54,973 bases of DNA from a virus (Duplodnaviria > Caudoviricetes). The stretch spans positions 1-54,973 of the IMG/VR virus record IMGVR_UViG_3300046752_000076, one strand, 5' to 3'. A program made the translations under genes and the position numbers. Numbering within the stretch: position 1 is the first letter of the stretch; every line of letters starts with the position of its first letter. Of the stretch, positions 6,763 to 51,500 are shown in pieces. The notes under the pieces are model-generated. The model had not been told where the DNA came from, made no database searches, and saw only the letters and a list, made by a program, of their open reading frames with translations.

Positions 6763-6794
6763 ACTATAGGGTAATAGACATGCTACAGTCGTCC
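6763..6794 (-). promoter_or_regulatory. GGACGAC-type putative late promoter
   Basis: GGACGAC (6788-6794) abuts the upstream TAG; 19 nt; TATAGT. Confidence 0.7.
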
Positions 6795-11971: not shown

Positions 11972-12004
11972 TATTTATGAAGTTTATTTGCGGCTCAGTC
12001 GTCC
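11972..12004 (-). promoter_or_regulatory. GGACGAC-type putative late promoter
   Basis: GGACGAC (11998-12004) directly after the capsid terminator; AT-rich CATAAAT 18 nt downstream. Confidence 0.6.
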
Positions 12005-12064: not shown

Positions 12065-13228
12065 TTAAGCTGTTGCGTTCCAACCCTTGATGTACGCATG
12101 GGTTTTGTCCTGCAATAGTTCCAAACCACATTCGGTAAGGTACTCGTGCTTAACAGCATCCATATCGTTTGACTGACGATCACGTAGCAACTGAGTGTCG
12201 CGACCTTCCATGAAACGGTACTTGAGGTGTGGGAAGTCGATGATGACTGCCGCATTTTCCATGCCTGGAACCTGACGGAATTGAGGGTGTAAATGCACCA
12301 TCAAGTCGCCTGCGAACGTAGCATAGCGAGTTAAGTTCACACCGTATGTGCCCTCAACTACAGTTGGCTGCCAGCGATCTTTACCAAACTTCTGCAAGTG
12401 GCCTGCAACTTTTGCACCACAGAACATGATCTTCTGATTGCTTCCGAAAGCGAAAACATCTTCGATCAATGATCGGTCAAACTGATCTTCTGTCATAACG
12501 CCAGAAGCTGTTGCACGGTCATTTACGTTTGTGATGGTACTAATTAATCCACCTGTCATACGTGTTGGTTGAGCAGTAGAGGCATTTGCTTCATTCTTCT
12601 TACCGAAGAACATTGCTCGCTCAATATCCTGCATGTGCAGTTTAAGAGCTTTCGTAGCCATCTCGTCCTCTTTATCGCCTGTACGAAGATTGGTCGCACG
12701 CAAAGTTTCGGTTACGGTAAATGCCGTACGAAAGATTTGTGTGAAGTTCGAAGCCACGCTGGCGTCAAATGAGATGCCAGTCGGTGATGTCGCACCTTCT
12801 TCGTACGCTGTGCCTGCGATGAATAGATTTGCACCATCATCGATTGCAGCAGCGCCTCCGCCAATACCACGCTCAACTGTTAGTGAGGTAGCAGTACTGT
12901 CGGCAGTACAACGCATAACTTCGTTAGTCGCTGAGTTTACAATAAGTGAACCAGCTACAGCAAAAGTTCCTGCATTGTTGTTAGTGATTGTAATAGACGT
13001 AGCACTGTTGTTTACAGCACCATTGACTACTAATGCACGAGCAGGGAGTTCATCTCTGAAGTTCTTAAATTCTGGGTCATCCGTGGCTTCTGATGAAGTC
13101 ATTGATAACAAAGCGTTTAAGGGAGCGTTCCCATTTGGTTCCAAGAGTGTGAATAACTCTCGGTAATTTTTCGGGCGGAAGTCCGTTGTAAACTGACCTG
13201 TTCCCCGAAGTCCTTGAATACCAGCCAT
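12065..13228 (-). CDS. Major capsid protein (SU10/DUF5309-like HK97 fold)
   Basis: 387 aa; NFTQIFRTAFTVTET, KALKLHMQDIERAMFFG, TRMTGGL and terminal EYLTECGLEL motifs; AAGGAG RBS; follows the scaffold gene. Confidence 0.9.
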   Translation of the reverse strand: MAGIQGLRGTGQFTTDFRPKNYRELFTLLEPNGNAPLNALLSMTSSEATDDPEFKNFRDELPARALVVNGAVNNSATSITITNNNAGTFAVAGSLIVNSATNEVMRCTADSTATSLTVERGIGGGAAAIDDGANLFIAGTAYEEGATSPTGISFDASVASNFTQIFRTAFTVTETLRATNLRTGDKEDEMATKALKLHMQDIERAMFFGKKNEANASTAQPTRMTGGLISTITNVNDRATASGVMTEDQFDRSLIEDVFAFGSNQKIMFCGAKVAGHLQKFGKDRWQPTVVEGTYGVNLTRYATFAGDLMVHLHPQFRQVPGMENAAVIIDFPHLKYRFMEGRDTQLLRDRQSNDMDAVKHEYLTECGLELLQDKTHAYIKGWNATA

Positions 13229-13360: not shown

Positions 13361-13391
13361 ATATTGTCAGAAAAGTTTATTGTGGTCGTCC
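13361..13391 (-). promoter_or_regulatory. GGACGAC-type putative late promoter for the capsid gene
   Basis: GGACGAC (13385-13391), 18 nt, CAATAT; right after a terminator. Confidence 0.65.
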
Positions 13392-13427: not shown

Positions 13428-14441
13428 TTAACCCATACGTTTGCTCATCGCGTTCTGTGCAAGTCGTGCAAGGGTGTCATCTCCGCCTGTTTCTGCTGCT
13501 TGGCTAGTAGGGCCACCTGATTGTGAGCGTAAATATGCCTCACGTCGTTTAGCCATTTCGCGTATGCGTTCGAACTCTGGCGCGTTCATTTGGTTTTTAA
13601 AGTCATTAACGACTTTGTTCGTAAGCCCCATGTCCACAAAGTCTTCGGCAGTATACCCACGCTCTAGTGCGTACGCACGAAAGTCATCGAGAGCTTCATC
13701 AGGCAAGCCAGCTTGCTGCTGGGCTTTATCAAGATTGTTTCGTATCGTGTTGGTTATAGTATCTTCACGAGATTGCATTGCTTCTTCTCGTGATTGATTG
13801 CCTTGCTGACCAGCCGCCATAGCTTGCTGCATGATGTTCTGGTTCATATTAACCATTTGACCCATCATTCTTTTCATTTCAGCTATTTCGATATTCATCT
13901 CACGAAACCCAGGTGGTAACGAGATGGCATTTTCATCTTCGTACTTCTGAAACTCTTCATTTAGTTTGGCAGACAAAGCCTCTGCATCACCCTGTTGGGG
14001 TGCTACTGGTTGGGCTACTCCTTCTTGTTTTGGACGAGCCTGTCCCATCTGAGCATTTTTACTCATAGCCTTTAAGCCTGCTGCCATTAACTTAGCAGCT
14101 TCTTCTGGGCCTTGACCTGTCTTTTCCATAATCATGCTAGCAAGATCATTTACAGGTTTCATCTGCGCTTGTTTGAAGTTGAGGTCACGATACCGTTCGT
14201 ACGTACCAGCAATTTGTGACGGTGAAAGAGGACGTTCTTCATCGCCAATCTTCACGTTATAAATGATTGCCTCTGCTTGAGACTTGTCGCCTTCAGTCTC
14301 AGGAGATGCAGCCGCAACTGCTTTTTCTTGTGCAGTCTCTGGTGCCTCCTTCGTCTCTGGCTTTGGTTGTGCTGGCGCACCCATTTGTGAAGCAGCAATA
14401 CGTGCTACTTGATCTGCGTCTTTTTCTGGTTGTCTAGCCAT
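13428..14441 (-). CDS. Capsid scaffolding protein
   Basis: 337 aa, Gln/Glu/Ala-rich and helical, YNVKIGDEERPLS motif, immediately upstream of the capsid gene. Confidence 0.75.
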   Translation of the reverse strand: MARQPEKDADQVARIAASQMGAPAQPKPETKEAPETAQEKAVAAASPETEGDKSQAEAIIYNVKIGDEERPLSPSQIAGTYERYRDLNFKQAQMKPVNDLASMIMEKTGQGPEEAAKLMAAGLKAMSKNAQMGQARPKQEGVAQPVAPQQGDAEALSAKLNEEFQKYEDENAISLPPGFREMNIEIAEMKRMMGQMVNMNQNIMQQAMAAGQQGNQSREEAMQSREDTITNTIRNNLDKAQQQAGLPDEALDDFRAYALERGYTAEDFVDMGLTNKVVNDFKNQMNAPEFERIREMAKRREAYLRSQSGGPTSQAAETGGDDTLARLAQNAMSKRMG

Positions 14442-14718
14442 TGTCTATCCTTTCTGAGCGGCCTTGGCGGCTCGTGGCTTCTTCAAGTGAAAGCTCACCC
14501 TCTAGTTTGTGGATGAGCCGTTCGGGCATATTAAGCAATTGCTCTGCTGCCCATATTGCACCTCGCTGAAAGTCCATCTGCTGTTGCGTCATTTCTTGGG
14601 TTCGAGCCATTGCAAGTGCGAGAGTTAGTATTTCTTCTCTCATTACTTCGTTTACGTGGTTCCAACCTTTACTTTCTGCGAGTTCAATTATGTCTTTAAC
14701 TTTGCTCTTGACGTTCAT
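14434..14718 (-). CDS. Small head-module protein
   Basis: 94 aa with S-x-GW...FQRGAI pattern typical of small genes between portal and scaffold. Confidence 0.6.
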   Translation of the reverse strand: MNVKSKVKDIIELAESKGWNHVNEVMREEILTLALAMARTQEMTQQQMDFQRGAIWAAEQLLNMPERLIHKLEGELSLEEATSRQGRSERIDNG

Positions 14719-14733: not shown

Positions 14734-14841
14734 TTACTTTTTCACCTTCAGTCCTGAAGGTTTCTTTTTGACTGGTGCTTTACCAGCGCGTACAGGCGAG
14801 CACCCCTTTTTCTTCATCCCATTTTTCTTTCCGTGTGGCAT
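14734..14841 (-). CDS. Lys-rich micro-protein (35 aa)
   Basis: Hand translation MPHGKKNGMKKKGCSPVRAGKAPVKKKPSGLKVKK; TAATG coupling with the upstream ORF. Confidence 0.65.
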   Translation of the reverse strand: MPHGKKNGMKKKGCSPVRAGKAPVKKKPSGLKVKK

Positions 14842-15047
14842 TACTTCTTACCTTTCTTCCAAGAGATCCTCTTGGAGCTTGTTTTCTTTCTGGCTGCGCT
14901 TGTGCATTGCGCTTTCGTAGGCCGACAGGCTGGGTAGGACTTACGCTTTTCACCCTTCTTACGACCACAGGGTTTCCCAGTTTTACAGTCTATCCATCCT
15001 TTGCCGCCGTTCTGAGCAAACCATGTACGAAGATCATTTTTTGCCAC
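14841..15047 (-). CDS. Lys/Arg/Cys-rich small protein (68 aa)
   Basis: LRTWF...KGWIDCKTGKPCGR...YPACRP; GTG start overlapping the previous ORF. Confidence 0.7.
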   Translation of the reverse strand: MAKNDLRTWFAQNGGKGWIDCKTGKPCGRKKGEKRKSYPACRPTKAQCTSAARKKTSSKRISWKKGKK

Positions 15048-15156
15048 GAGGTTTTTTCTTTTTCTTTGCAGCAGCTATCACGTCGCCACGAGTAATCTTC
15101 TTCTTGTTACCGTACTGGGCGGCAAGTTTCTTTTGAGCTGGTGTCATACGTTTCAT
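15034..15156 (-). CDS. Lys-rich micro-protein (40 aa)
   Basis: MKRMTPAQKKLAAQYGNKKKITRGDVIAAAKKKKKPRGKK; ATGA coupling. Confidence 0.65.
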   Translation of the reverse strand: MKRMTPAQKKLAAQYGNKKKITRGDVIAAAKKKKKPRGKK

Positions 15157-15317
15157 TTCTTTTTGCCTTTACTTTTGTTTCCCCAGTTTTTAGCGCCAAC
15201 CTTACGGCACTTACTCAACGCCCCACTTGCATACGCAGAAGGCCAAACTTTATATCTGGCTTTCACTTTGCTATAACAGGCGTCTTTCTTAGCCGTTTTT
15301 TTCTTCTTGGCTGGCAT
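15153..15317 (-). CDS. Lys-rich micro-protein (54 aa)
   Basis: MPAKKKKTAKKDACYSKVKARYKVWPSAYASGALSKCRKVGAKNWGNKSKGKKK. Confidence 0.7.
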   Translation of the reverse strand: MPAKKKKTAKKDACYSKVKARYKVWPSAYASGALSKCRKVGAKNWGNKSKGKKK

Positions 15318-15320
15318 GAC

Positions 15321-15413
15321 TTAGCCTTGCGTACACGGGCAGTCTTTGTGCTGCATGTTTCCTGTCTGAGTTTTTAAACCCAGCTTTTTAACTTCTTTGG
15401 ATGTCTTAGCCAT
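15321..15413 (-). CDS. Basic micro-protein (30 aa) with CPC motif
   Basis: MAKTSKEVKKLGLKTQTGNMQHKDCPCTQG; TAATG coupling. Confidence 0.55.
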   Translation of the reverse strand: MAKTSKEVKKLGLKTQTGNMQHKDCPCTQG

Positions 15414-15523
15414 TAGTAACCCTTCTTCTTCTTCATAGGCTTACCAGACTTGGCCGCTGCTTTCTTAGCTGCTGCTTTACCCTTTTTTGTGTAAGGGAAT
15501 TTTTTCTTTCCTACTGTTGGCAT
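15413..15523 (-). CDS. Lys/Ala-rich micro-protein (36 aa)
   Basis: MPTVGKKKFPYTKKGKAAAKKAAAKSGKPMKKKKGY; AAGGAG RBS. Confidence 0.7.
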   Translation of the reverse strand: MPTVGKKKFPYTKKGKAAAKKAAAKSGKPMKKKKGY

Positions 15524-15533
15524 GGTATACTCC

Positions 15534-15797
15534 TTAACAGTTCCAAGCACGACGGCTCCAATAGTTAGCCGACAATTTATTTGATTTACCTTTTATCCCA
15601 CCGCTACGAGCGCAGTACGATTTCTTTCGAGAGGGCGTACCTTTCTTGATTGTCATCTTGGCATCCCCGAAGCGAATTATTTTTTCCTTGCCATTGGCGC
15701 AGGCTTTCACAACAAACTTCTTGCCGCCCGAAACCTGACGCTTCGGTTTGTTACAGGCCATAGATTTCTTGGAAGCTTTCTTTTTTGCTGCTGGCAT
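15534..15797 (-). CDS. Lys-rich small protein (87 aa)
   Basis: KKFVVKAC...KIIRFGD...RKKSYCARS...SANYWSRRAWNC; AAGGAG RBS. Confidence 0.75.
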   Translation of the reverse strand: MPAAKKKASKKSMACNKPKRQVSGGKKFVVKACANGKEKIIRFGDAKMTIKKGTPSRKKSYCARSGGIKGKSNKLSANYWSRRAWNC

Positions 15798-15815
15798 AAC
15801 TAACTCCTTTAGAGC

Positions 15816-15846
15816 ATTATGTTTATTATACAGCTACATGTCGTCC
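15816..15846 (-). promoter_or_regulatory. GGACGAC-type putative late promoter
   Basis: GGACGAC (15840-15846), 18 nt, CATAAT. Confidence 0.7.
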
Positions 15847-15930
15847 TTATTTATCGTCTTTCCAAACCGTCCAAAGCAAAATTAAAACAAAGACAATTAA
15901 TAAAATATCGACTAACATTATCCTCTAAAT

Positions 15931-15937
15931 GTCGTCC
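15931..15937 (-). promoter_or_regulatory. Second GGACGAC motif in the same intergenic gap
   Basis: 4 nt after the oxygenase stop codon; -10 element unclear. Confidence 0.5.
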
Positions 15938-15941
15938 TCTA

Positions 15942-16577
15942 TCAAAACATGCAGTCGTCAAAAACAGCATTGCAGCTAAGAATTATTCTATCTTCATCTG
16001 CCATGTGTGGATTGGTGAAATGTGCCATATGCGCTGGAAAAACAACTAACATGCCCTTCTTAGGGTTAAGGGTGTACTTATCATTCCATAATGCAAAGCC
16101 ATTTCCATAAATCATATTGTAAGAAGATGCCGCTGGATTGCGAAAAACAATCTCACCAGTACCCTCTGAGGTTGCTCCATAAAACACACAAGCTAAATGA
16201 GCAAAGCCGTGAATATGCTCTGGTGCAAAATGACCATGACCATAAATCGAAACCCAAGAATTTGTAAGGTGAAACTTCGGGTCTGTATTTAAAGCGTTTG
16301 TGTACTTTTGACACTGCCTAACGATAGCGTGATGTATTGGATCAAAGCGTTTATCTTCGTCCAGTTTAAATCTACCATGACTTGTGTAACCATGTTTTTT
16401 GTAATCTTCGGGTGACTTCGCTCGTTCAAAGTTATGCCAAGCATGACTTATAAGCTTTCCGTTAGGGTCTTGGTCACGCAAATCATAAGCGTACTCGCAC
16501 AGATCGTCAGCTAATTTTTCCCCATCGTCTATGATTTCATGTAAGATAGGAAAGCTAAAAGGGTTCTCAAACCCCAT
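15942..16577 (-). CDS. 2OG-Fe(II) oxygenase (TIGR02466-like)
   Basis: NSWVSIY...EHIHG (HxH), LACVFY, GEIVF-x-NP, LVVFPAHMAH, RIILSCN. Confidence 0.85.
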   Translation of the reverse strand: MGFENPFSFPILHEIIDDGEKLADDLCEYAYDLRDQDPNGKLISHAWHNFERAKSPEDYKKHGYTSHGRFKLDEDKRFDPIHHAIVRQCQKYTNALNTDPKFHLTNSWVSIYGHGHFAPEHIHGFAHLACVFYGATSEGTGEIVFRNPAASSYNMIYGNGFALWNDKYTLNPKKGMLVVFPAHMAHFTNPHMADEDRIILSCNAVFDDCMF

Positions 16578-16796: not shown

Positions 16797-17087
16797 TTAG
16801 TCTCCGTCTGGAAGATTGTTTACCTCTACTGCTTCAGCAGCAGTCTCAGTTGGTGATAACGGCATAGCTGGAACGTTACTGTAATCGTCTTCTATGTCGT
16901 CTGGAAAACTGGCTGGGTGATCGCGTAACGCTGTACGATACGCAACCCAATCAGTCTTTGCTGTATTGTATGCAGAGTAGCTTGTTGAGTTTTCCAAGAG
17001 CTTGATTATTTCTATGTCACTCTTTGCTAACTTATCATCTCTAGCCGCCCTCATGTTTTTCATAAGAAGTTCTTTATCAACAGCCAT
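16797..17087 (-). CDS. Tail fibre assembly chaperone
   Basis: R-AARDDKLAKSD...WVAYRTALRDHP...P motif; follows the fibre gene. Confidence 0.8.
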   Translation of the reverse strand: MAVDKELLMKNMRAARDDKLAKSDIEIIKLLENSTSYSAYNTAKTDWVAYRTALRDHPASFPDDIEDDYSNVPAMPLSPTETAAEAVEVNNLPDGD

Positions 17088-19231
17088 TAGCTTTCTCCGT
17101 TATATTTCATCGAAGGGTTCTCAGAGCAGTATGTGTACGGAAAGGATCGTGGCGTACCATCTGCGCCCTCACCCCAGATGATACGTACACCCCCAGGAGC
17201 ACCGTTGCCGCCGCCGCTGGAAGTTCCCGAACCACCGCCTCCACCGCCATGCGTACCGCCAACACGGACGCGATTGCCCCCGCTTCGTTCTTCTCGGCCT
17301 GTGAATTGGTTCTCGCCCCATGCACCTCGCGTACCGCCCGAACCACCGCCTCCACCGCCGTAGAAGTTAGCAGAGCTATTGTTATATGAAGTCCAATTAC
17401 CAGACGAACCGCCTAGACCAGAACCAGCATTAATATCTGATCTTGGTTTAACATTACCGTCTACGCCTCTCCAACCCTGACCATCTAGGCCAACGCCACC
17501 GCCGCCTCCTTGACCATAAGTTGAAGAATAGTTGTATCCGCAACCACCGCCGCCTCTAACACCTCGGTCACTGCTACCAGCCCTATCTTGATTACCTCTA
17601 TATCCAGCCGCACCCATTCCAACACGGCTACCGCCAGCATAGTAAGCAGCACCGCCACCATAGTGAAAGCCGTTTACAGAAGAACCGAGACCAGTGTTTA
17701 CTGCATAACCACCACCGTCACGACTGTCGTTTGCACCGTAACCACTTCCTTTGTTCCAATAATCAAGGCCATTTGGAGTGTGGTCCAACCAAGTTTTCTG
17801 ACCATTAGGATTGGAGGTTTGGTAGCCAGTGTAGCCACCACATTCACCGAATATAACAGTTTGACCGCTAGGGTTGACTATGAAACTTGATCCAGCACCA
17901 TAGCTTGAAACGTTGCTTTCACTTTGACGACCCAAGCCAACATAGACGTAATACACATCTCCTGGAGAACAGCTAATACCGTTCATCCAAGCAAGACCAG
18001 CAGCACCGCCTGCGTCGGAGGCCCAATTGTACGCACCCCCAGAACCGCCGCCTACTGCAACAGCACAAAAGGATGTAACTCCACTTGGCACTGTCCAGCG
18101 AAACTTTACTAATTGATAGTTACTGCCAGCACACCACCAAGTACTATTATCGGCATTAAAGCCCATGTAGCCATGTTTTGCGTAACCTGATGCACCTGTC
18201 AAATCGTCATAATAGGATTGGGTGGTGTAATTTATGGCATAGTGTGAACCCCAAGCACAGCCATATCCATCATTATATAAATAGGGAGAAGTGTCATCAT
18301 TTACATCATGAACACGTCTTAATGCACCAGAAGATTTAAGTGGATTGCAAGCGTTATCTGAAGTAGCTTGATCGGCAGATTTATCTTGAGTGTTTTGTGG
18401 ATTAAAGTTAGCATTATTCGGCCCGAAGTATCTTGCGCCGTAAGGGTCGCCGTATGCAATATTTTCAGTATAAGTTTTGGATACTGTTCCGTATGAGCCT
18501 AAATCTATTGTTATCGTTAGGCTGTGTGCAGAACTTGCTGCCACAATGTCACCAACATTTGTAAGATAAACTCGACCAGTAGCCGCGTCTATTTGTGGTG
18601 TTACGGCACTATTAAATCCAGATATGTTTGACATAGTAAAAACAGGAGTTGCATAACTGGTTGTCGTAGCAGCAAGGATATCTTGTTCGCCAGTAGTATT
18701 ACGAATTATTTGATTTCCAAGAGAGGCTGGGAAAGTAGGCGTAGTACCAGTAGGTACAATTTCAAGTTCATAGGTAAATTCGGTTTGTTCATCGGTGCGA
18801 CCATAAGGGTAATCTACCTTTACCTTGAAAGTATATTTACCTTCAGTGCCGCTACTAGGAGTGCCGTAAAAACGAGCCTCACCCATATCTTGATCGGTGC
18901 TGTCGCTATTTTCAGCCCACGAAATACCAGAAGGTAATCCCGTCGTAGGTGCAATAGCTTCATAGGTAACTTGACCAGACGCGGTTTCAAACGCATTATC
19001 TATGTAAAAGTATTGATCTATTGTAGGAATACTTACGCCAACATCGATCATTACTTTTACAGTAGCACCAGGTTCTATAAACCCACCGTGGGAAGCATTG
19101 TTTATGTTAGGGTGGCCTTTAGCTATCTTCACAAAGCCACCAGCCGCAGTAGAAGCCGCAGTAGTAGCCGCACCACCAGCTATATTATAGTCGCCACTGC
19201 TTATCTTATATGAACGTCTTTTCTTAGCCAT
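17087..19231 (-). CDS. Glycine-rich tail fibre/receptor-binding protein with Ig-like domain
   Basis: GLPSGIS...FYGTPS...GKYTFKV Ig-like repeat; WTVPSGVTSFCAVAVGGG ... GAPGGVRIIWG glycine-rich domain. Confidence 0.8.
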   Translation of the reverse strand: MAKKRRSYKISSGDYNIAGGAATTAASTAAGGFVKIAKGHPNINNASHGGFIEPGATVKVMIDVGVSIPTIDQYFYIDNAFETASGQVTYEAIAPTTGLPSGISWAENSDSTDQDMGEARFYGTPSSGTEGKYTFKVKVDYPYGRTDEQTEFTYELEIVPTGTTPTFPASLGNQIIRNTTGEQDILAATTTSYATPVFTMSNISGFNSAVTPQIDAATGRVYLTNVGDIVAASSAHSLTITIDLGSYGTVSKTYTENIAYGDPYGARYFGPNNANFNPQNTQDKSADQATSDNACNPLKSSGALRRVHDVNDDTSPYLYNDGYGCAWGSHYAINYTTQSYYDDLTGASGYAKHGYMGFNADNSTWWCAGSNYQLVKFRWTVPSGVTSFCAVAVGGGSGGAYNWASDAGGAAGLAWMNGISCSPGDVYYVYVGLGRQSESNVSSYGAGSSFIVNPSGQTVIFGECGGYTGYQTSNPNGQKTWLDHTPNGLDYWNKGSGYGANDSRDGGGYAVNTGLGSSVNGFHYGGGAAYYAGGSRVGMGAAGYRGNQDRAGSSDRGVRGGGGCGYNYSSTYGQGGGGGVGLDGQGWRGVDGNVKPRSDINAGSGLGGSSGNWTSYNNSSANFYGGGGGGSGGTRGAWGENQFTGREERSGGNRVRVGGTHGGGGGGSGTSSGGGNGAPGGVRIIWGEGADGTPRSFPYTYCSENPSMKYNGES

Positions 19232-24203: not shown

Positions 24204-24235
24204 CATTTACTCCTATAATAACCCTACAGTCGTCC
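24204..24235 (-). promoter_or_regulatory. GGACGAC-type putative late promoter for the portal gene
   Basis: GGACGAC (24229-24235) abuts the TerL TAA; 19 nt; TAAATG. Confidence 0.65.
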
Positions 24236-26477: not shown

Positions 26478-26508
26478 ATGTTACGCATCTGCGTTACGCA
26501 TGTCGTCC
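26478..26508 (-). promoter_or_regulatory. GGACGAC-type putative late promoter heading the terminase operon
   Basis: GGACGAC (26502-26508), 18 nt, TAACAT; spacer region holds an ATGCGTAAC direct repeat. Confidence 0.65.
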
Positions 26509-36981: not shown

Positions 36982-37992
36982 CTACGTAAGCGACATCACG
37001 GCTGCTTTGTGATCTTCGTATGTTGTGTTCATGTATCGCATGACCATCTTCAAATCACTGTGCCCAAGTAAATCAGCGATCACTTTAGGCGGTACGCCAT
37101 TACGTGCAAGACGTGTAGCGAATGTGTGGCGTAGTGTGTACGGACTTTTATTTATCTTTAGTTTATCCGTCACCTTACGCCAGTGATACCCGATCTGTTT
37201 GTTCGTTTCGAACGGTCTGCCTTCCAGCAAGAACGGATATAAACTTGGCGGTGGATCACTCTTTGGTATTGTTGCGAGTGCCCTGTCGTTAAGGGGCACC
37301 CGACGCTCCCTGAGTTCTCCGTCTGCTCCCTTATACGAGCCGAGGACTACCGTACTGTTGGTAAAGTCTACGGCTGTATAAGTTAAACGCATTGCTTCTA
37401 TTGGTCGTGCGCCAGTATGCAAAAGGAAAGTACACAATCGTCTCACGTCAGGATGCAAATCAGGAAAGATTAATTCTATCTCTTCCACTGACAGCGTATC
37501 GGTTTTGTGTTTTCCCTCTCGCGGCTTCTTTATTTTTATACTGTCACGTAACCCTAAAGATGCAGCAAAATTTAGCAGACCTTGTAATTGGTTTAAGTCA
37601 CGTCTGATCGTAGAGTTCGCATTGCCTTTGTTGACGTGTACCTCTTCAACATATTCCTCAATATCATTAAGGTCTATCTTGTTGACTTGGTAGTCACCAA
37701 AGTAATCCGTCAATCGCATTACGTAATCCACTGTAGACTTTGAGCTGCCTGTGTGCGGCGACTTTAAATATCTACGCGCTACGGATTTGAATTTGTTTTG
37801 TGCTCCATGAGTATTCTTCGCACCTAACTTAATCGCACCCGATAAAACCTTCGCTTCAAACTCAGCGCATAGGTCTTTAGCGTGGACGTAATCATGTGTA
37901 CCCAGAGTATGCCTTACTCGTAATCCTTGGAACGAGCCAATGGCGTGGTACATTTTACGACCAGAAATTTTTTTAACTTTGAATAACGGCAT
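36982..37992 (-). CDS. int: Tyrosine integrase
   Basis: TGARPIE, YTLRHTFATRL, LLGHSDLKMVMRY catalytic motifs. Confidence 0.95.
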   Translation of the reverse strand: MPLFKVKKISGRKMYHAIGSFQGLRVRHTLGTHDYVHAKDLCAEFEAKVLSGAIKLGAKNTHGAQNKFKSVARRYLKSPHTGSSKSTVDYVMRLTDYFGDYQVNKIDLNDIEEYVEEVHVNKGNANSTIRRDLNQLQGLLNFAASLGLRDSIKIKKPREGKHKTDTLSVEEIELIFPDLHPDVRRLCTFLLHTGARPIEAMRLTYTAVDFTNSTVVLGSYKGADGELRERRVPLNDRALATIPKSDPPPSLYPFLLEGRPFETNKQIGYHWRKVTDKLKINKSPYTLRHTFATRLARNGVPPKVIADLLGHSDLKMVMRYMNTTYEDHKAAVMSLT

Positions 37993-42232: not shown

Positions 42233-42264
42233 AACATAACCGATATGAGTTTGCTATGTCGTCC
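42233..42264 (-). promoter_or_regulatory. GGACGAC-type putative late promoter heading the lysis region
   Basis: GGACGAC (42258-42264), 19 nt, TATGTT; 5 nt after the resolvase stop. Confidence 0.7.
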
Positions 42265-42269
42265 TCTAA

Positions 42270-42647
42270 CTAGGAAATAGAACCTGTCTCCAACAAGTAC
42301 GAGAGGTAAAGTTCACGCCAATCATGCAGTCTCATTACTACTAAGCTTTCACCCAGCTTCTCACCATTACGTCGCGTAATAACAACTGGCTTTTCTGGTG
42401 CGTGTGTAAGACGTATGTTTCTTTCTGCTTGCTTCATAGCTTCTCGAACATTTAAACGCTCTACGCGTTTTGCTTCTATAAAAATATCTGGCGTACCGAT
42501 TATGTCGGCACCACCCACTACTCCTATCTTGCCACCGCCAGAAAGCGGTGCTCTTTGGCATCTGTTTTCATTAAAGATATGATCGTTGAACCAATGTGCT
42601 AGGTCTACTTCGTACCTATCACCTTTTCTTTTCTGTGGATTAGCCAT
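42270..42647 (-). CDS. Holliday junction resolvase (Hjc-like PD-(D/E)XK)
   Basis: KRKGDRYE, PLSGGG, ADI...IFIEAKR, KPVVITRRN. Confidence 0.8.
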   Translation of the reverse strand: MANPQKRKGDRYEVDLAHWFNDHIFNENRCQRAPLSGGGKIGVVGGADIIGTPDIFIEAKRVERLNVREAMKQAERNIRLTHAPEKPVVITRRNGEKLGESLVVMRLHDWRELYLSYLLETGSIS

Positions 42648-48211: not shown

Positions 48212-48512
48212 GCTGCGCGACCTACCTTTGGATGAGGGTAAGAGACTAATTAACACTGACCGTAACAAAGAGTATGGCGAACCATACGATAACTTCTCTG
48301 ACATAGCTGCGATGATAACGGCTATACTGCGAAGCATCCTCAAAGATGGTGAGCGCGTACGTGTCGAGCATGTTGCAATGATAATGATTATCGTCAAGCT
48401 TTCGCGTATGACCACATCACCCGATAAGTTCGATAGTTGGGCAGACATTGCAGGCTACGTAGGAACTGGATGGGAAGCTATTGCTGTTGATCGGGGGATA
48501 AATACCGACTAA
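48204..48512 (+). CDS. DUF6378-like phage protein
   Basis: DRNKEYGEPYDNF...KLSR...DSWADIAGY. Confidence 0.8.
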   Translation: MSKLRDLPLDEGKRLINTDRNKEYGEPYDNFSDIAAMITAILRSILKDGERVRVEHVAMIMIIVKLSRMTTSPDKFDSWADIAGYVGTGWEAIAVDRGINTD

Positions 48513-51500
48513 CCCCAACCATTACCCCAGCCTGATTTACTACCGCCCTTCTTGCTGCGCTCTCCTGCAACACTATCTACGATACCTTCTTTAGCCCAAG
48601 ACACGCCACCGAGAACTGGTACTCGTCCTACTACTTCTCGAACTGCTGCTCTCTTTTCTCCGTTGGTATCGTCTTGATCCCACCATGATCGAGCACCTTG
48701 AAGCACAGTCGTAGCGTCATTGAATAGCCCAACTGTCGGGCCACCAATTGTTTCTAAGTTTCTTTGTGCTCCGTACGCACCGTTATCAGATTGTGAAGCT
48801 ATGTCGTACATCAGCTCGCCAATAAGACCAAGACCACCTAAAGCTATCATACCATCAAAGTACCAACCCATAAGCATATCCATGTCTTCGTTTTCTTCAA
48901 AGGCAGTGGTCAGTGTTTCAGAAAGCTTTCGTTCACGTAAGGTAAACTCCCTGTTATCTTCACCACCACGACCTTGAATAATGTCTTTCGTACCGACAGC
49001 TATACCACCCATGGCAGGGCCAGCTACTAAAAGCGCAGCCAGTGGTGCAAGTCTATTGTCACTTTGTCCTACAAAAGCTTTTGCGAAGTTAGCGCCACGT
49101 TCAGCAGTAGTGTTACCTCTAAATGCTTCGCCAGCCACAGTGTTTATCAGTCTTGTCATCATCAAAGGATATGATTTCAACTGAAACGCAATCGCACCTA
49201 GCGGTGTTTGTGCCCATAACGGTATGTCATTTGGGTTAGGCGTAAAGATCATTTGGTTTGTCAGCTTAATCATAGAAGCCGAAACTTTATCAGCCATTGG
49301 ATGTTCGTTATTTGTAAAACGGCTTTCCATTATCATATCTAAATCAAGTGACTGATCTTGTACTAACTCACCTAAACCCTCTTCGTTAAGTATACGACGA
49401 GCAATACGACCAGCTCTAGAATTCGGACGCTGCTTTAAAATTCTATGCTGGGCTTTAACGTGTTCGTACGATACGGCAGCAGCCACATCTCTCATCATGT
49501 CTGTCCAGGGGGTAAGCAATGTGGCGTTAAAAAAGCCAGTCATAAACTGCGTACTATCTACCCCATGAGCAACCGTAAGTCTTTGATGCACTGCGTTTTC
49601 TGTAGCAGCACCGATATTTCGGATCATATCTCGATACTCTGGATCAACTGCAAACTTACGAAGAGATTTAACATATGCGCCCATATCACCCGTTCGTACT
49701 AACGGCAGCACTAGATCACCAAGAGACGTTAAGGTTGTGAACCCAAGTAGTGTAACTGCGTTGACCCCACGTAACCATTTAGAAGCGTTACGCATAGAAA
49801 ATGTTCCATGTACTCCATCAATAGGTCGTCGCATTGCAGAGTTCATAAAACCTTGTGCGTGCTGTAGGTTTCTGTTTGATGGTACGTCGGTAAGACCTTT
49901 TGTGTCGCCTAGCGCACTAGCTATTGCAGAAGCTCTTTTTTTAAAGTTGTTACGTAAAAGCTCTGCGTCTGGGTTGTCGTCAAGCCTATCACCAAGAAGT
50001 TCCATAATGTTAGCTTCTATCTCAGGTGCTGTTTTACCGTCCCTTGCCATATCAATAAGCTGTTGAGCTTTTTGTTCTGCTTCAAACTTATTTTTTATTG
50101 GCGCATAGAAATAATCATTTCTAAACGTCTGGGTTTTGGTGCCGTGATCTGTCATGCCTGATCGCGTCCAATTAGTTGTAATAATCTTATTGCTTGAAAG
50201 CAGCTTTCCAATAGCCTGACGAGCGTTCATTGGCTGAGACAGGATAGCCATGTAATCATGGTATCCATGTGCGCCTACTCCAAATTTTTCTGATATGTCT
50301 ATACGATGTTCTAAGTTGTCACTGTATTTAGTCATAGCAACGAGCAGATCATTCTCTAAAAACACACCCAAGCTATCAGGTACATCCATGTCAGCAAACT
50401 CTGGGAACTCGTCAAGGCGAATAAGTCTGGTGTAGTCTAAGTGATCTGACTGATCTCCTGCTTTATCGGCGTTACGTTTAAAGTTTTGCGCTGGGTTAGA
50501 GTACACACCATCTTCGTCTGTAAGTCTTTGCATTACGCGTCGAGCTGCCGCTTCTGCTTTAGCCGCTTCGCCTGTTCCGTTTCTTTCTGCCAAGAAATAC
50601 TTTTTAAGTCTGCGAACAAACTCTTCTGGGTCGGCTTGGATCAAGTCCTTGCGCCATACCTGTGGGAAATAGTTTTTCTTTAAGTTGCCAACAAGAGCAC
50701 CAGATGCACGCAATCGACCAGTAGCTTCGTCAAGATAACCACGTACATGGTCATATGTAATCCTTTCTGATGGGTCAAGTTCACCAACTTTATTTGCATC
50801 TCGTAGCGCACTGATAATTCGTAAGTGGCTGGCTGGCTGTGTCATACGGCGTCTTGGGTTGATGCCCATTGCACCCATTGCACTTTCAGCCATCATTTGT
50901 GGCCCTGTTCGAAAGTAGTTTGTAAGTTTATTTTTACTATCAGGTAACTCTTTTAGCATTTTTGTAAGAGGTATAATAAACTTACCCATACGTGCGTTTG
51001 TTCTTTCAAAGTGACCACCACTTCCATCCGTAGGCTCAAAGAAATTAGCAAGATTTCTTATACCCGAACGGTTCATTATTTTTGAGTTAGTACGAAACGG
51101 ATTGTAAATATTAGACTTACGTATTTCGGCTGCTGCATCAGCAGGCATACCTCTTCCCCTGGCAACTGCCACCATTGCTTCTAGCGTACGAGCAGGAACG
51201 CCAGCTTCTTCTAGTTCTCCTGCTGCTTGGTTTATAACTCGTATTGTGTTGTCACCTTCGACGGCTTGGATTATTCTACCGTTTACTGAGTGAAGCTGTG
51301 AACCTTCACCAATAACAGGTGTTGATGCTTCAAACACATCACTTCGTATGTTACGAACGTTTCGGTTAGACAGCATCATTTTAACGTCACCAAGATTTAC
51401 GCTAGTAAAACCAGCCTCTTGCATTGACTTCTTAAACTTACGAACGCCGCCCATAATTCCTACAACCTTACGTGCCATTTCTTCGGCAGTATGCACACCC

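What the first reader, a model, noticed from the sequence alone, without database searches (positions are those of the whole stretch)
14734..15937. Array of seven tightly packed, very basic micro-proteins behind a double late promoter
Seen: ORFs of 87, 36, 30, 54, 40, 68 and 35 aa joined by TAATG/ATGA overlaps or gaps of 10 nt or less; most are strongly Lys-rich with few acidic residues, and several carry paired Cys or Trp motifs. Five are missing from the ORF track. Two GGACGAC motifs precede them and they sit directly upstream of the scaffold and capsid genes. Inference: a late module of protamine- or histone-tail-like nucleic-acid-binding peptides, for genome condensation/charge neutralisation or ribosome/RNA binding. 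Similar small genes occur in marine phages, but I know of no assigned function for the module.
Basis: partly seen in the sequence, partly recalled or inferred. Interest (0 to 1): 0.75.

Follow-up and report, generated by a model that had tools for sequence, protein, structure and literature searches.

The report
Array of tiny basic phage proteins
A marine phage carries seven back-to-back genes for very small, strongly positively charged proteins that are real, conserved and swapped like cassettes between phages, and that are probably packed with the DNA inside the virus head, although nobody has measured this.

Summary
Seven minus-strand ORFs of 87, 36, 30, 54, 40, 68 and 35 aa fill 14734-15797. 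They have pI 9.5-11.4 and a summed net charge of +107, and two GGACGAC motifs precede them. All seven are genuine genes. Six have orthologues in related uncultured phages, with amino-acid identity above nucleotide identity and dN/dS 0.00-0.28; the seventh (40 aa) has its own 14-member family.

The array is modular: close relatives lack or add single genes. Three modules (54, 68, 87 aa) are widespread in marine phages. In T4-like cyanophages such as Syn9 gp114 they occur as beads in long proteins. One such protein, S-SCSM1 ORF29, is labelled "virion protein" in a record whose paper reports virion mass spectrometry.

The 87-aa protein is a weak, sub-threshold relative of Tlr6F/DUF5754. No fold or family gives a function.

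Best reading (about 0.45): leaderless, stand-alone versions of head-internal, DNA-associated basic peptides, working like the T4 internal-protein locus. This is not shown. Rivals are unpackaged nucleic-acid binders and membrane or lysis helpers.

The "late promoter" label is unproven, but GGACGAC is a striking family-wide, strand-specific signal. This scan earlier noted the same two-cysteine cationic cassettes in tagged polyproteins of other marine phages.

The parts
15931..15937 (-). GGACGAC motif, distal copy, directly after the stop codon of the 2OG-Fe(II) oxygenase gene
   Evidence: The same position is occupied in relative L012.
15840..15846 (-). GGACGAC motif, proximal copy, 49 nt upstream of the m87 ATG. 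It lies inside a roughly 91-nt stretch that the closest relative lacks.
   Evidence: In 14 of 19 relatives a single copy lies 48-52 nt upstream of the m87 start.
15534..15797 (-). m87: 87-aa basic protein (pI 10.8, net +24, 4 Cys). Weakly Tlr6F/DUF5754-like. AAGGAG ribosome-binding site.
   Evidence: phrog_7595 at E 5e-13. DUF5754 at E 0.0055, below the Pfam cut-off. 1696 database clusters. Found in 22 related loci. dN/dS 0.03-0.21. AF2 model with pLDDT 69.
15413..15523 (-). m36: 36-aa Lys/Ala-rich protein (39% K), histone-H1-tail-like in composition. AAGGAG ribosome-binding site.
   Evidence: phrog_33179 at E 1.4e-8. 81% nt match to pelagiphage Lederberg, where the ORF is unannotated. Found in 10 related loci. 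dN/dS 0.04-0.28.
15321..15413 (-). m30: 30-aa protein with a C-terminal DCPC motif, the least basic of the seven (net +4)
   Evidence: Found in 20 related loci at E 1e-15 to 2e-19. Amino-acid identity 87-100% at nucleotide identity 78-97%, dN/dS 0.00-0.11. No homologue was seen outside this phage family.
15153..15317 (-). m54: 54-aa protein carrying a roughly 43-aa two-Cys (C-x22-C) helical-hairpin domain that is very widespread in marine phages
   Evidence: phrog_727 at E 2.5e-20. 2700 representative clusters, 2178 of them at E <= 1e-10. Present in 365 phage records, mostly cyanomyoviruses. AF2 model with pLDDT 72. C-x22-C spacing in 148 of 150 hits.
15034..15156 (-). m40: 40-aa protein with the motif KITRGDVIAAAKKKK. 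A cassette present in this genome but in none of the 80 related loci.
   Evidence: 14 homologues in the large protein collection. Alignment with an invariant K-I-T..D, including HTVC106P gp29. Flanked by near-repeats of the m54 tail codons.
14841..15047 (-). m68: 68-aa protein with a GTG start, invariant L6, W9, W18, C27, P39 and C41 in its family, and 4 Cys here
   Evidence: tblastn hits in 13 phage records: roseo-, pelagi-, cyano- and Flavobacterium phages. Found in 17 related loci. dN/dS 0.00-0.21. Fused with m54-like domains in 10 of 151 stored proteins.
14734..14841 (-). m35: 35-aa Lys-rich protein (motif CSPVRAGKAPVKKK). A member of the small basic gene type that abuts p94 throughout the phage family.
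   Evidence: Found in 14 related loci. Alignment A9. In 62 of 73 loci a strongly basic small ORF ends at the p94 start.
14434..14718 (-). p94: conserved acidic 94-aa protein (pI 5.2) between the array and the putative scaffold gene.
   Evidence: Homologues in 77 of 80 related loci. Alignment A8. No family hit.
13428..14441 (-). Putative scaffold protein (337 aa, pI 4.9), used as the anchor for finding relatives
   Evidence: Assigned by position only, just upstream of the capsid gene. 41% identical to CRP-810 gp46. 80 related loci.
13385..13391 (-). GGACGAC motif between the scaffold and capsid genes, at a conserved position in relatives
12065..13228 (-). Major capsid protein
   Evidence: phrog_1328 at E 3.5e-41. 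77% nt match to the capsid gene of Roseobacter phage CRP-810.

Best explanation
The seven ORFs are genuine micro-genes for polycationic mini-proteins. I read them as components loaded into the phage head with the DNA.

Shown:
- They are conserved at the protein level.
- They are transcriptionally embedded in the head-assembly block: motif, array, p94, scaffold, capsid.
- They behave as exchangeable cassettes.
- The m54, m68 and m87 modules are the same modules that T4-like cyanophages string together in long proteins. One of these is labelled a virion protein.

Inferred:
- In myoviruses the modules enter the prohead as tagged polyproteins and are cut apart at hydrophobic-x-Glu sites.
- In this podovirus-type phage no head protease was recognised, and the same modules are made directly as leaderless peptides.
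- The peptides are taken in with the DNA, or via the acidic p94 or scaffold proteins.
- Inside the head they neutralise and condense DNA. The Lys/Ala/Pro-rich m36, m35 and m40 act like histone H1 tails. The two-Cys modules are stapled by disulfides once the virion is in oxic seawater.
- They are probably co-ejected with the DNA, where some may also protect or prime the incoming genome, as T4 internal proteins do.
For: Reality of the genes:
- Orthologues were found in the stretch up to 3.5 kb upstream of the scaffold gene in 80 related loci, many of them truncated. Counts are m87 22, m36 10, m30 20, m54 16, m68 17, m35 14.
- Amino-acid identity exceeds nucleotide identity, and dN/dS is 0.00-0.28 wherever dS is not saturated.
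- m40 has 14 homologues.

Place: the array lies between a family-wide motif and the p94-scaffold-capsid genes.

Fusion (Rosetta-stone) evidence:
- Among 151 stored proteins that contain an m54 domain, 10 also carry an m68-like domain and 4 an m87-like domain. P0137 carries all three.
- Syn9 gp114, S-B68 "structural protein" and S-SCSM1 ORF29 "virion protein" combine m68-like, m54-like and DUF6321 modules.
- The S-SCSM1 paper reports 45 virion proteins by mass spectrometry of CsCl-purified particles, 13 of them of unknown function (PMC9602691, passages read).

Protease-type joints: [LIVMF]-x-E lies within 14 residues upstream of 72 of 94 internal m54 domains, against 25% of random windows in the same proteins.

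Composition and structure:
- Composition fits DNA counter-ions: net +107 over 350 aa and only 11-17% ILVFMW.
- Cys pairs co-vary: CCCC in 130 of 138 m87 relatives, with losses in pairs. C-x22-C spacing holds in 148 of 150 m54 domains.
- The m54 model is a helical hairpin that would bring the two Cys together.

Plasticity like the T4 ip locus (the T4 comparison is recalled): the closest relative lacks m40 and m35 and has an extra gene, and others keep only 2-3 members.

Distribution: the module is essentially viral. Only 15 loci were found among one genome each of 185,579 species, all in metagenome bins.
Against: - No experiment places any stand-alone micro-protein in a virion.
- The "structural/virion" labels are record annotations. 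I could not see the supplementary tables that list which S-SCSM1, Syn9 or S-SM1 ORFs were detected. Sullivan et al. 2010 call the cluster (T4-GC119) only a "hypothetical protein" in a possibly mobile cassette.
- The window's peptides have no targeting leader, so the loading route is undefined.
- In pelagiphages HTVC106P and Lederberg the homologous arrays lie beside an M15 peptidase and small membrane proteins and diverge from an HTH regulator gene, not in an obvious head module.
- m87-like genes often neighbour a TM/coiled-coil protein. Tlr6F genes of polinton-like viruses are reported near pore-forming SLATT genes.
- Identity of 76-93% for the m54 domain across phages of different host phyla is more than unspecific charge neutralisation would require.
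- Neither model matched a known DNA-binding fold. The best Z scores were 2.4 and 2.6.
Confidence: 0.45

Rival explanations
1. The micro-proteins are made in the infected cell and act there without being packaged. They would be small basic binders of host or phage nucleic acid (nucleoid, ribosome/rRNA, mRNA or replicating phage DNA), used for host takeover or genome handling.
For: - The m54 domain is 76-93% identical across phages of cyanobacteria, Roseobacter and unknown hosts. m87 and m68 also occur in phages of SAR11 (both) and of Flavobacterium (m68). This suggests a specific, universal target.
- In HTVC106P and Lederberg the arrays lie among small accessory genes next to a regulator gene rather than among head genes.
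- The composition resembles ribosomal-protein extensions and histone tails.
Against: - In this phage family the array is fixed between the tail-fibre/oxygenase genes and p94-scaffold-capsid, behind the same motif as other structural genes.
- Fused forms carry head-protease-type joints and are labelled virion proteins.
- No similarity to ribosomal or RNA-binding families at E <= 1.
Confidence: 0.2
2. Some or all of the peptides are membrane- or envelope-active cationic helpers of lysis or entry, working with the neighbouring TM/coiled-coil protein and endolysin. The comparison is with the cationic lysis peptide gp28 of phage phiKT, which is recalled and not checked here.
For: - m87-like genes sit next to a small TM/coiled-coil protein in relatives L005/L012 and L015, in CRP-810, CRP-2 and Lederberg, and next to M15 peptidases in HTVC106P.
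- A paper notes Tlr6F (DUF5754) genes often near SLATT pore-protein genes in polinton-like viruses (PMC12220804, passage read).
- Weak fold echoes include a disulfide-stapled helical-hairpin antimicrobial peptide: Z 2.2 with 36 residues aligned, which is not significant.
Against: - The window itself has no homologue of the TM/coiled-coil protein, yet it keeps all the modules.
- Hydrophobic content is only 11-17%, far from amphipathic membrane peptides as I recall them.
- The modules occur as internal beads of long soluble proteins.
Confidence: 0.12
3. The ORFs are not genes. They are chance open frames in a purine-rich strand, or remnants of a decayed larger gene.
For: - Short, low-complexity Lys-rich frames arise easily on an A-rich strand.
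- m68 has a GTG start and a poor ribosome-binding site.
- m40 has no orthologue in the 80 related loci and no phage-record hit.
Against: - Amino-acid identity exceeds nucleotide identity and dN/dS is 0.00-0.28 for six ORFs.
- There are hundreds to thousands of database relatives for m54 and m87.
- m40 has a 14-member family with invariant KIT..D.
- 98.8% coding density with coupled start/stop overlaps.
Confidence: 0.02

Closest known systems
Phage T4 internal proteins IPI, IPII, IPIII and their variable ip locus, with the capsid-targeting sequence and gp21 head protease (recalled knowledge, not fetched here)
   Same: - Small basic proteins encoded in a late, highly plastic locus whose members are swapped between close relatives.
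- Homologous modules in T4-like cyanophages sit in proteins labelled virion or structural and are preceded by hydrophobic-x-Glu joints.
   Different: - The window's proteins are much smaller (30-87 aa) and have no N-terminal targeting leader.
- No head protease was recognised in the window.
- There is no sequence similarity to the T4 internal proteins.
- The modules carry conserved Cys pairs.
- Packaging has not been shown.
Tlr6F / Pfam DUF5754 (PF19058): a small uncharacterised protein of polinton-like viruses, virophages, giant viruses and some phages
   Same: - m87 gives its only Pfam hit to DUF5754 (residues 21-64, E 0.0055). 3 of 17 family members hit at E <= 0.01.
- A neighbouring ESM Atlas cluster has DUF5754 on 16% of its members.
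- It is small, conserved and of unknown function (PMC4642659 and bioRxiv 10.1101/2022.07.28.501842, passages read).
   Different: - The score of 17.2 bits is below the 27.4-bit gathering cut-off.
- The C-terminal half of m87 (..CARSGG..YWSRRAWNC) looks more like DUF6321, which did not hit m87 itself.
Cyanomyovirus gene cluster T4-GC119: Syn9 gp114, S-B68 "structural protein", S-SCSM1 ORF29 "virion protein"
   Same: These proteins contain m68-like and m54-like domains and a DUF6321 domain ending RAWNC like m87. The m54 domain is 76-93% identical at the protein level, and the m54 region is about 71-76% identical at the nucleotide level.
   Different: - There the modules are beads of one 207-517-aa protein with extra modules (CW..GY..NCV). 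Here they are separate micro-genes in another order: m87, m36, m30, m54, m40, m68, m35.
- Sullivan et al. 2010 list the cluster as a hypothetical protein in a possibly mobile cassette.
Small-gene arrays of pelagiphages HTVC106P and Lederberg and of roseophages CRP-2, CRP-902 and CRP-810
   Same: The same families occur side by side. In HTVC106P these are gp30 (m87-like), gp29 (m40-like), gp26 (m54-like) and gp25 (m68-like). Lederberg has m87/DUF6321-like and m36-like genes. CRP-2 has gp71 and gp70. CRP-902 has gp70, an unannotated m68-like ORF and gp67.
   Different: - The genome context differs (next to M15 peptidase, a regulator gene or the small terminase gene).
- The partner genes differ.
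- All are annotated hypothetical, several are unannotated, and one appears misnamed.
Histone H1 tails, protamines and adenovirus core proteins VII and mu (functional analogy only, recalled)
   Same: Lys/Ala/Pro/Ser-rich polycations of low hydrophobicity. m36 is 39% Lys and 44% G/A/P/S/T.
   Different: No homology. DNA binding has not been tested. Four of the seven (m87, m54, m68 and m30) have conserved Cys pairs, and three of them (m87, m54, m68) also conserved Trp residues, rather than being unstructured tails.

Membership tests
T4-type internal proteins (capsid-targeted, protease-processed head cargo) | N-terminal capsid-targeting leader ending in a hydrophobic-x-Glu cleavage site | tested here: not met
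   - All seven begin directly with basic residues (MPAAKKK, MPTVGKKK, MPAKKKK and so on) and have no acidic leader.
- Homologous modules in long proteins do have [LIVMF]xE joints: 72 of 94 against 25% in the control.
T4-type internal proteins (capsid-targeted, protease-processed head cargo) | A phage-encoded prohead protease | tested here: inconclusive
   No protease family in Pfam scans of 10 unassigned structural-module ORFs or in PHROG scans. Absence of a hit does not prove absence.
T4-type internal proteins (capsid-targeted, protease-processed head cargo) | Physical presence inside the head and co-ejection with DNA | not testable with these tools
   There are only indirect record labels for fused homologues and a paper whose per-ORF list is in supplements that I could not open.
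T4-type internal proteins (capsid-targeted, protease-processed head cargo) | Small basic proteins in a hyper-variable late locus | tested here: met
   pI 9.5-11.4. Single genes are gained and lost among relatives whose scaffold proteins are 47-90% identical.
Tlr6F / DUF5754 (PF19058) | Score at or above the Pfam gathering cut-off (27.4 bits) | tested here: not met
   m87 scores 17.2 bits, E 0.0055. 3 of 17 relatives hit at E <= 0.01, with a best E of 6.7e-4.
DUF6321 (PF19846) | Pfam match | tested here: not met
   Only the Lederberg 83-aa relative (1 of 17) matches, at E 4.1e-24. The window's m87 does not match, although it shares the ...RAWNC end.
DUF5872 (PF19197), considered for m68 | Pfam match | tested here: not met
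   0 of 14 m68-family members match at E <= 0.01. The link is only an ESM Atlas lead, with the family on 18-29% of members of neighbouring clusters.
PHROG families phrog_7595 (m87), phrog_33179 (m36) and phrog_727 (m54) | Significant profile match | tested here: met
   E 5e-13, 1.4e-8 and 2.5e-20. All are "unknown function". m54 matches only positions 261-309 of a 450-position profile.
Ribosomal proteins or other known RNA-binding small proteins | Profile match to a ribosomal or RNA-binding family | tested here: not met
   No Pfam or NCBIfam hit at E <= 1 for any of the seven apart from DUF5754.
Cationic lysis peptide (phiKT gp28 type) | Amphipathic, substantially hydrophobic cationic helix encoded in a lysis cassette | tested here: inconclusive
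   ILVFMW content is 11-17%. The window has no lysis gene adjacent and no TM/coiled-coil homologue, but relatives have one beside m87.

The most novel reading that the evidence does not exclude
A shared, cassette-like toolkit of disulfide-stapled polycationic mini-domains (m54, m68, m87/Tlr6F-like, DUF6321 and others) serves as the protein counter-ion and condensing system for packaged dsDNA in marine viruses. It is delivered as leaderless micro-genes in small podoviruses and as protease-cut polyproteins in T4-like phages. Through Tlr6F it may reach polinton-like and giant viruses. It is exchanged freely across phages of unrelated hosts.
Probability: 0.2. Interest if true: 0.8.

Novelty: new variant of a known kind. 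Interest (0 to 1): 0.6.

Why it matters
- These mini-domains are among the most widespread unassigned sequences in marine viromes. m54 has 2700 clusters at 50% identity and m87 has 1696 clusters at 90% identity.
- Annotation often misses them. Unannotated copies occur in SIO1, CRP-902 and Lederberg.
- They would be nearly invisible to tryptic virion proteomics.
- Linking the stand-alone micro-genes to the bead form in cyanophage virion proteins gives a concrete, cheap hypothesis to test in cultured roseophages, pelagiphages and cyanophages.
- If they are head-internal DNA partners, they bear on how small marine phages neutralise packaged DNA, on what enters the cell with the genome, and on the unknown role of Tlr6F-like proteins in eukaryotic viruses.

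Tried and rejected
- NCBIfam: no hit for any micro-protein at E <= 1.
- PDB by sequence with the m87 profile: no hit at E <= 1.
- Fold searches against 48,161 PDB representatives:
  - m87 model (pLDDT 69.3): best Z 2.4.
  - m54 model (pLDDT 72.0): best Z 2.6. No Z >= 5 in either search. Nothing can be read from them.
- Complex prediction, p94 with m35: "no answer", score 0.00, controls not run.
- tblastn of m40 against phage records: no match.
m40 was resolved instead by the large protein search.
- ESM Atlas: only leads (DUF5754 on 16% and DUF5872 on 18-29% of members of neighbouring clusters). The DUF5872 lead was not confirmed by Pfam.
- Alignment A5, mixing fused and single modules, misaligned m68 onto m54 and was not used.
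- RNA evidence:
  - Four RNA-labelled runs hold only 151-221-nt contigs.
  - X17 covers 14979-15129 and 15420-15579; the others lie in the scaffold gene.
  - These are contigs, two of the runs are only guessed to be RNA, and DNA carry-over is possible. This says nothing firm about transcription, and nothing about the uncovered parts.
- Sigma-70-type promoter scan: 7 sites against 5.4 expected, not informative.
- A T4-type late promoter upstream of Syn9 gp114 and S-SCSM1 ORF29 was looked at by eye and left undecided.
- Literature:
  - Searches for pelagiphage + small proteins + lysine-rich, Syn9 + gp114, and cyanophage + internal head protein + capsid targeting sequence found nothing on these genes.
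  - The DUF6321/DUF5754 search gave only two mentions of DUF5754 and none of DUF6321.
  - The CRP-810 paper has no occurrence of "small", "promoter" or "RNA polymerase".
Full report
**What the window is.** It is a roughly 98% complete uncultured virus record. It is a marine tailed phage whose capsid gene is 77% identical at the nucleotide level to that of Roseobacter phage CRP-810. It shares the order small genes, scaffold-like gene, capsid gene with that phage. Around the finding all genes are on the minus strand. In reading order they are:
- large terminase and portal;
- unassigned ORFs and a Gly-rich 714-aa fibre-like protein;
- a tail-fibre-assembly-like 96-aa protein;
- a 2OG-Fe(II) oxygenase (15942-16577);
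- the array;
- an acidic 94-aa protein (p94);
- a 337-aa acidic putative scaffold protein;
- the major capsid protein (phrog_1328, E 3.5e-41).

**Observation.** The seven ORFs exist exactly as described.
- Coordinates: m87 15534-15797, m36 15413-15523, m30 15321-15413, m54 15153-15317, m40 15034-15156, m68 14841-15047 (GTG start), m35 14734-14841.
- The junctions are a 10-nt gap, TAATG, a 3-nt gap, ATGA, a 14-nt overlap and TAATG.
- 1051 of 1064 nt are coding, pI is 9.5-11.4, net charge is +107 over 350 residues, and ILVFMW is only 11-17%.
- Two GGACGAC motifs precede the array, at 15931-15937 and 15840-15846.

**Are they genes?** Yes.
- A profile of the scaffold protein retrieved 80 related loci from IMG/VR, with 35-90% scaffold identity.
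- I searched the stretch up to 3.5 kb upstream of the scaffold gene. Many loci are cut short there.
- Orthologues were found in 22 loci (m87), 10 (m36), 20 (m30), 16 (m54), 17 (m68), 14 (m35) and 0 (m40).
- In nearly every pairwise comparison amino-acid identity exceeds nucleotide identity. Where dS is not saturated, dN/dS is 0.00-0.28. For example, m30 is 100% identical in protein at 90% nucleotide identity, and m68 is 96% identical at 88%.
- m40 has no orthologue in these loci and no tblastn hit in phage records. It does have 14 relatives in the large protein collection, on contigs up to 56 kb, with invariant K-I-T..D. HTVC106P gp29 aligns to it.
- The chance-ORF reading is therefore rejected.

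**Modularity.**
- The gene order is conserved: m87, [TM/coiled-coil gene], [m36], m30, m54, [m40], m68, [m35], p94, scaffold.
- Membership varies.
  - The closest relative (scaffold 90% identical) lacks m40 and m35. It has a 90-aa membrane/coiled-coil gene after m87, a longer m36 variant and only one GGACGAC.
  - Others keep only m87 + m35, m87 + m30 or m87 + m36. One has m36 moved behind m68.
- The m40 cassette sits inside what is the m54 tail in the relative. The last codons of m40 plus the embedded GTG of m68 are identical, over about 21 nt, to the relative's m54 end. A near-repeat of that stretch ends the window's m54. This points to recombination within the Lys-codon tails (inference).
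- Distant family members and CRP-810 keep a minimal set: a TM/coiled-coil gene, one small basic gene, p94 and the scaffold gene.
- p94 is present in 77 of 80 loci.
- In 62 of the 73 loci with enough upstream sequence, an ORF with net charge of at least +8 in its last 45 residues ends at the p94 start.

**Relatives elsewhere.**
- *m54.* It carries a roughly 43-residue domain found in 2700 clusters at 50% identity, 2178 of them at E <= 1e-10. The top 150 hits are 57-968 aa long and 62-93% identical (most 76-93%), and the domain is often C-terminal. It occurs in 365 phage records, almost all cyanomyoviruses, with about 71-76% nucleotide identity to the window.
- *m87.* It has 1696 clusters at 90% identity and hits in 25 phage records: roseophages including SIO1, pelagiphages and a cyanophage.
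- *m68.* It hits 13 phage records, including Flavobacterium phages.
- *Long hits.* They are chains of modules: m68-like, m54-like, a CW..GY..NCV module and DUF6321. Among the 151 stored proteins that contain m54, 10 also carry m68-like domains and 4 carry m87-like domains. P0137 has all three.
- *Named examples.* Syn9 gp114, S-B68 "structural protein, T4-like GC0119" and S-SCSM1 ORF29 "virion protein" have this build.
- *Stand-alone arrays of the same families.* They occur in HTVC106P, Lederberg, CRP-2 and CRP-902.
- *Cellular genomes.* In one genome each of 185,579 prokaryote species the m54 domain was found at only 15 loci. All are metagenome bins of very mixed taxonomy, so it is essentially viral.

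**Hints to function.**
- (a) *Virion labels.*
  - The S-SCSM1 paper reports 45 virion proteins by mass spectrometry of CsCl-purified particles, 13 of them of unknown function (PMC9602691, passages).
  - The GenBank record calls ORF29 a "virion protein".
  - The per-ORF list is in supplements I could not open.
  - Sullivan et al. 2010 mention T4-GC119 only as a hypothetical protein in a possibly mobile cassette (PMC3037559, passages).
- (b) *Joints.* [LIVMF]-x-E lies within 14 residues upstream of 72 of 94 internal m54 domains, against 25% of random windows. The recurring linkers (..TEEQFDEAAGKK..KLDEKK..LAEKK, EELEAVLDEK) resemble T4 head-protease sites (the T4 consensus is recalled). Several long proteins begin with short acidic leaders.
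- (c) *The window's peptides.* They lack such leaders. No protease family was recognised among 10 unassigned structural ORFs.
- (d) *Cysteines.* Cys pairs co-vary in the m87 family: CCCC in 130 of 138, with losses in pairs. The m54 C-x22-C spacing holds in 148 of 150. The m54 model is a helical hairpin (helices 13-21 and 28-40, pLDDT 72), which would place the two Cys side by side. A disulfide staple is my inference.
- (e) *m87 model.* It has a beta-hairpin (26-45) followed by two helices, with pLDDT 69.
- (f) *Known folds.* Neither model matches a known fold; the best Z scores are 2.4 and 2.6.
- (g) *Tlr6F.*
  - The only Pfam hit of m87 is DUF5754 (Tlr6F) at E 0.0055, below threshold. 3 of 17 relatives hit at E <= 0.01.
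  - Tlr6F is described as a small conserved protein of polinton-like viruses, virophages, giant viruses and some phages, with no known function (PMC4642659).
  - A few sub-threshold peptides were seen in purified PgVV particles (bioRxiv 10.1101/2022.07.28.501842).
  - It is often near SLATT genes (PMC12220804). All three were read as passages only.

**Most likely mechanism (confidence about 0.45).**
- The array encodes head-internal, DNA-associated polycations.
- T4-like marine phages would load the same modules as tagged polyproteins and cut them apart.
- This podovirus-type phage makes them directly, next to its head-assembly genes.
- What is shown: the genes are real and conserved, where they lie, their modularity and the fusion links.
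- What is inferred: packaging, DNA binding, disulfide stapling and co-ejection.
- Evidence against:
  - In pelagiphages the arrays lie beside M15 peptidases, small membrane proteins and a regulator gene rather than head genes.
  - m87-like genes recur next to a TM/coiled-coil gene, although the window has none.
  - The extreme conservation of m54 suggests a specific partner rather than plain charge neutralisation.
- The rivals, unpackaged nucleic-acid binders (0.2) and membrane or lysis helpers (0.12), remain open.

**The motif.**
- GGACGAC occurs 15 times in the window against 4.6 +/- 2.1 expected, and 13 of the 15 are on the minus, coding strand. Most are intergenic, often right after a stop codon and about 35-55 nt before the next ATG.
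- In the 80 related loci (583,010 bases) it occurs 229 times on the coding strand and 4 times on the other.
- A single copy lies 48-52 nt upstream of the m87 start in 14 of 19 relatives. None has two copies.
- It is a real family-wide signal and plausibly a promoter element. Only the 7-mer is conserved, which recalls the short T4 late promoter (recalled).
- "Late" is not established. Copies also lie in the replication half of the genome, for example at 42258 and 40442. The CRP-810 paper has no occurrence of "promoter" or "RNA polymerase".

**Earlier notes of this scan.** They describe capsid-targeting-tagged polyproteins built from cationic two-cysteine cassettes in T4-like marine jumbo phages on other DNA. 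That matches what I found independently. They are AI notes and do not count as independent evidence.

**Verdict.**
- The finding is real and well observed.
- It is best filed as a new, leaderless micro-gene variant of the "internal head protein" idea. It is built from widespread but uncharacterised viral mini-domains.
- Function remains untested.

Noticed in passing
window, 15 sites (for example 778-784, 6788-6794, 11998-12004, 13385-13391, 24229-24235, 26502-26508, 42258-42264); loci L004 and L012-L090: GGACGAC is a strand-specific, mostly intergenic signal of the whole CRP-810-like phage family. It occurs 229 times on the coding strand against 4 on the other in 583 kb, often directly after a stop codon and about 50 nt before the next start. 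It is a candidate promoter or regulatory element of unknown recognition factor.
   Followed up: partly
window 14434-14718 (-): p94 is an acidic 94-aa protein conserved in 77 of 80 related loci, always directly upstream of the scaffold-like gene and nearly always preceded by a small basic gene. It has no family hit. It may be a head-assembly factor or a partner of the basic peptides. The complex prediction with m35 gave no answer.
   Followed up: partly
L005 2848-3120; L015 3718-4068; L037 3777-4025; L049 3757-3996; L003 8379-8801; L007 1558-1824; L001 3554-3733: A small N-terminal-TM plus coiled-coil protein sits next to m87-like genes in relatives and in CRP-810 (where it is annotated "lysozyme"), CRP-2 and pelagiphage Lederberg. 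The window has no recognisable copy.
   Followed up: partly
L003 7968-8126 (CRP-810 gp49); L040 492-641; L079 3904-4056: CRP-810 gp49 is annotated "ribonucleotide reductase A subunit". It is a 52-54-aa basic micro-protein of another recurrent family (GLYANIHAKRKR...). The name looks like a misannotation.
   Followed up: no
L001 3003-3113 (Lederberg); Roseobacter phage SIO1 24074-24286 (H46/H47); CRP-902 42418-42618 (H26): Homologues of m36, m87 and m68 lie in stretches of published phage genomes with no annotated gene.
   Followed up: no
window 15034-15156 and flanks; L005 3500-3525: The m40 cassette is flanked by near-repeats of the Lys-codon tail of m54. Its last codons, with the embedded GTG start of m68, equal the relative's m54 end. 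This is a footprint of cassette insertion by recombination in the tails.
   Followed up: partly
proteins P0032, P0055, P0071, P0077, P0079, P0087, P0088, P0096, P0138: In several long proteins a CPECGG knuckle followed by ..(L/I)AE(K/E)K lies directly before the m54 domain. Together with the two Cys of m54 this would give four Cys. The meaning is unknown.
   Followed up: no
window 15942-16577 (-) and 17087-19231 (-): A 2OG-Fe(II) oxygenase (PF13759, E 6.5e-13) sits inside the structural operon just upstream of the array. A 714-aa protein with long Gly-rich runs (phrog_4474) precedes it.
   Followed up: no
window 36982-37992 (-) and 48509-54925 (-): There is a tyrosine integrase (phrog_1, E 2e-51), so the phage may be temperate. 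There is also a 2138-aa ORF with no PHROG hit, possibly a large internal virion protein.
   Followed up: no
loci L091-L105: The m54 domain appears in metagenome bins labelled as Euryarchaeota, Marinimicrobia, Pelagibacter, Woesearchaeota, Dojkabacteria and others. These are most simply viral contigs binned with cells.
   Followed up: no
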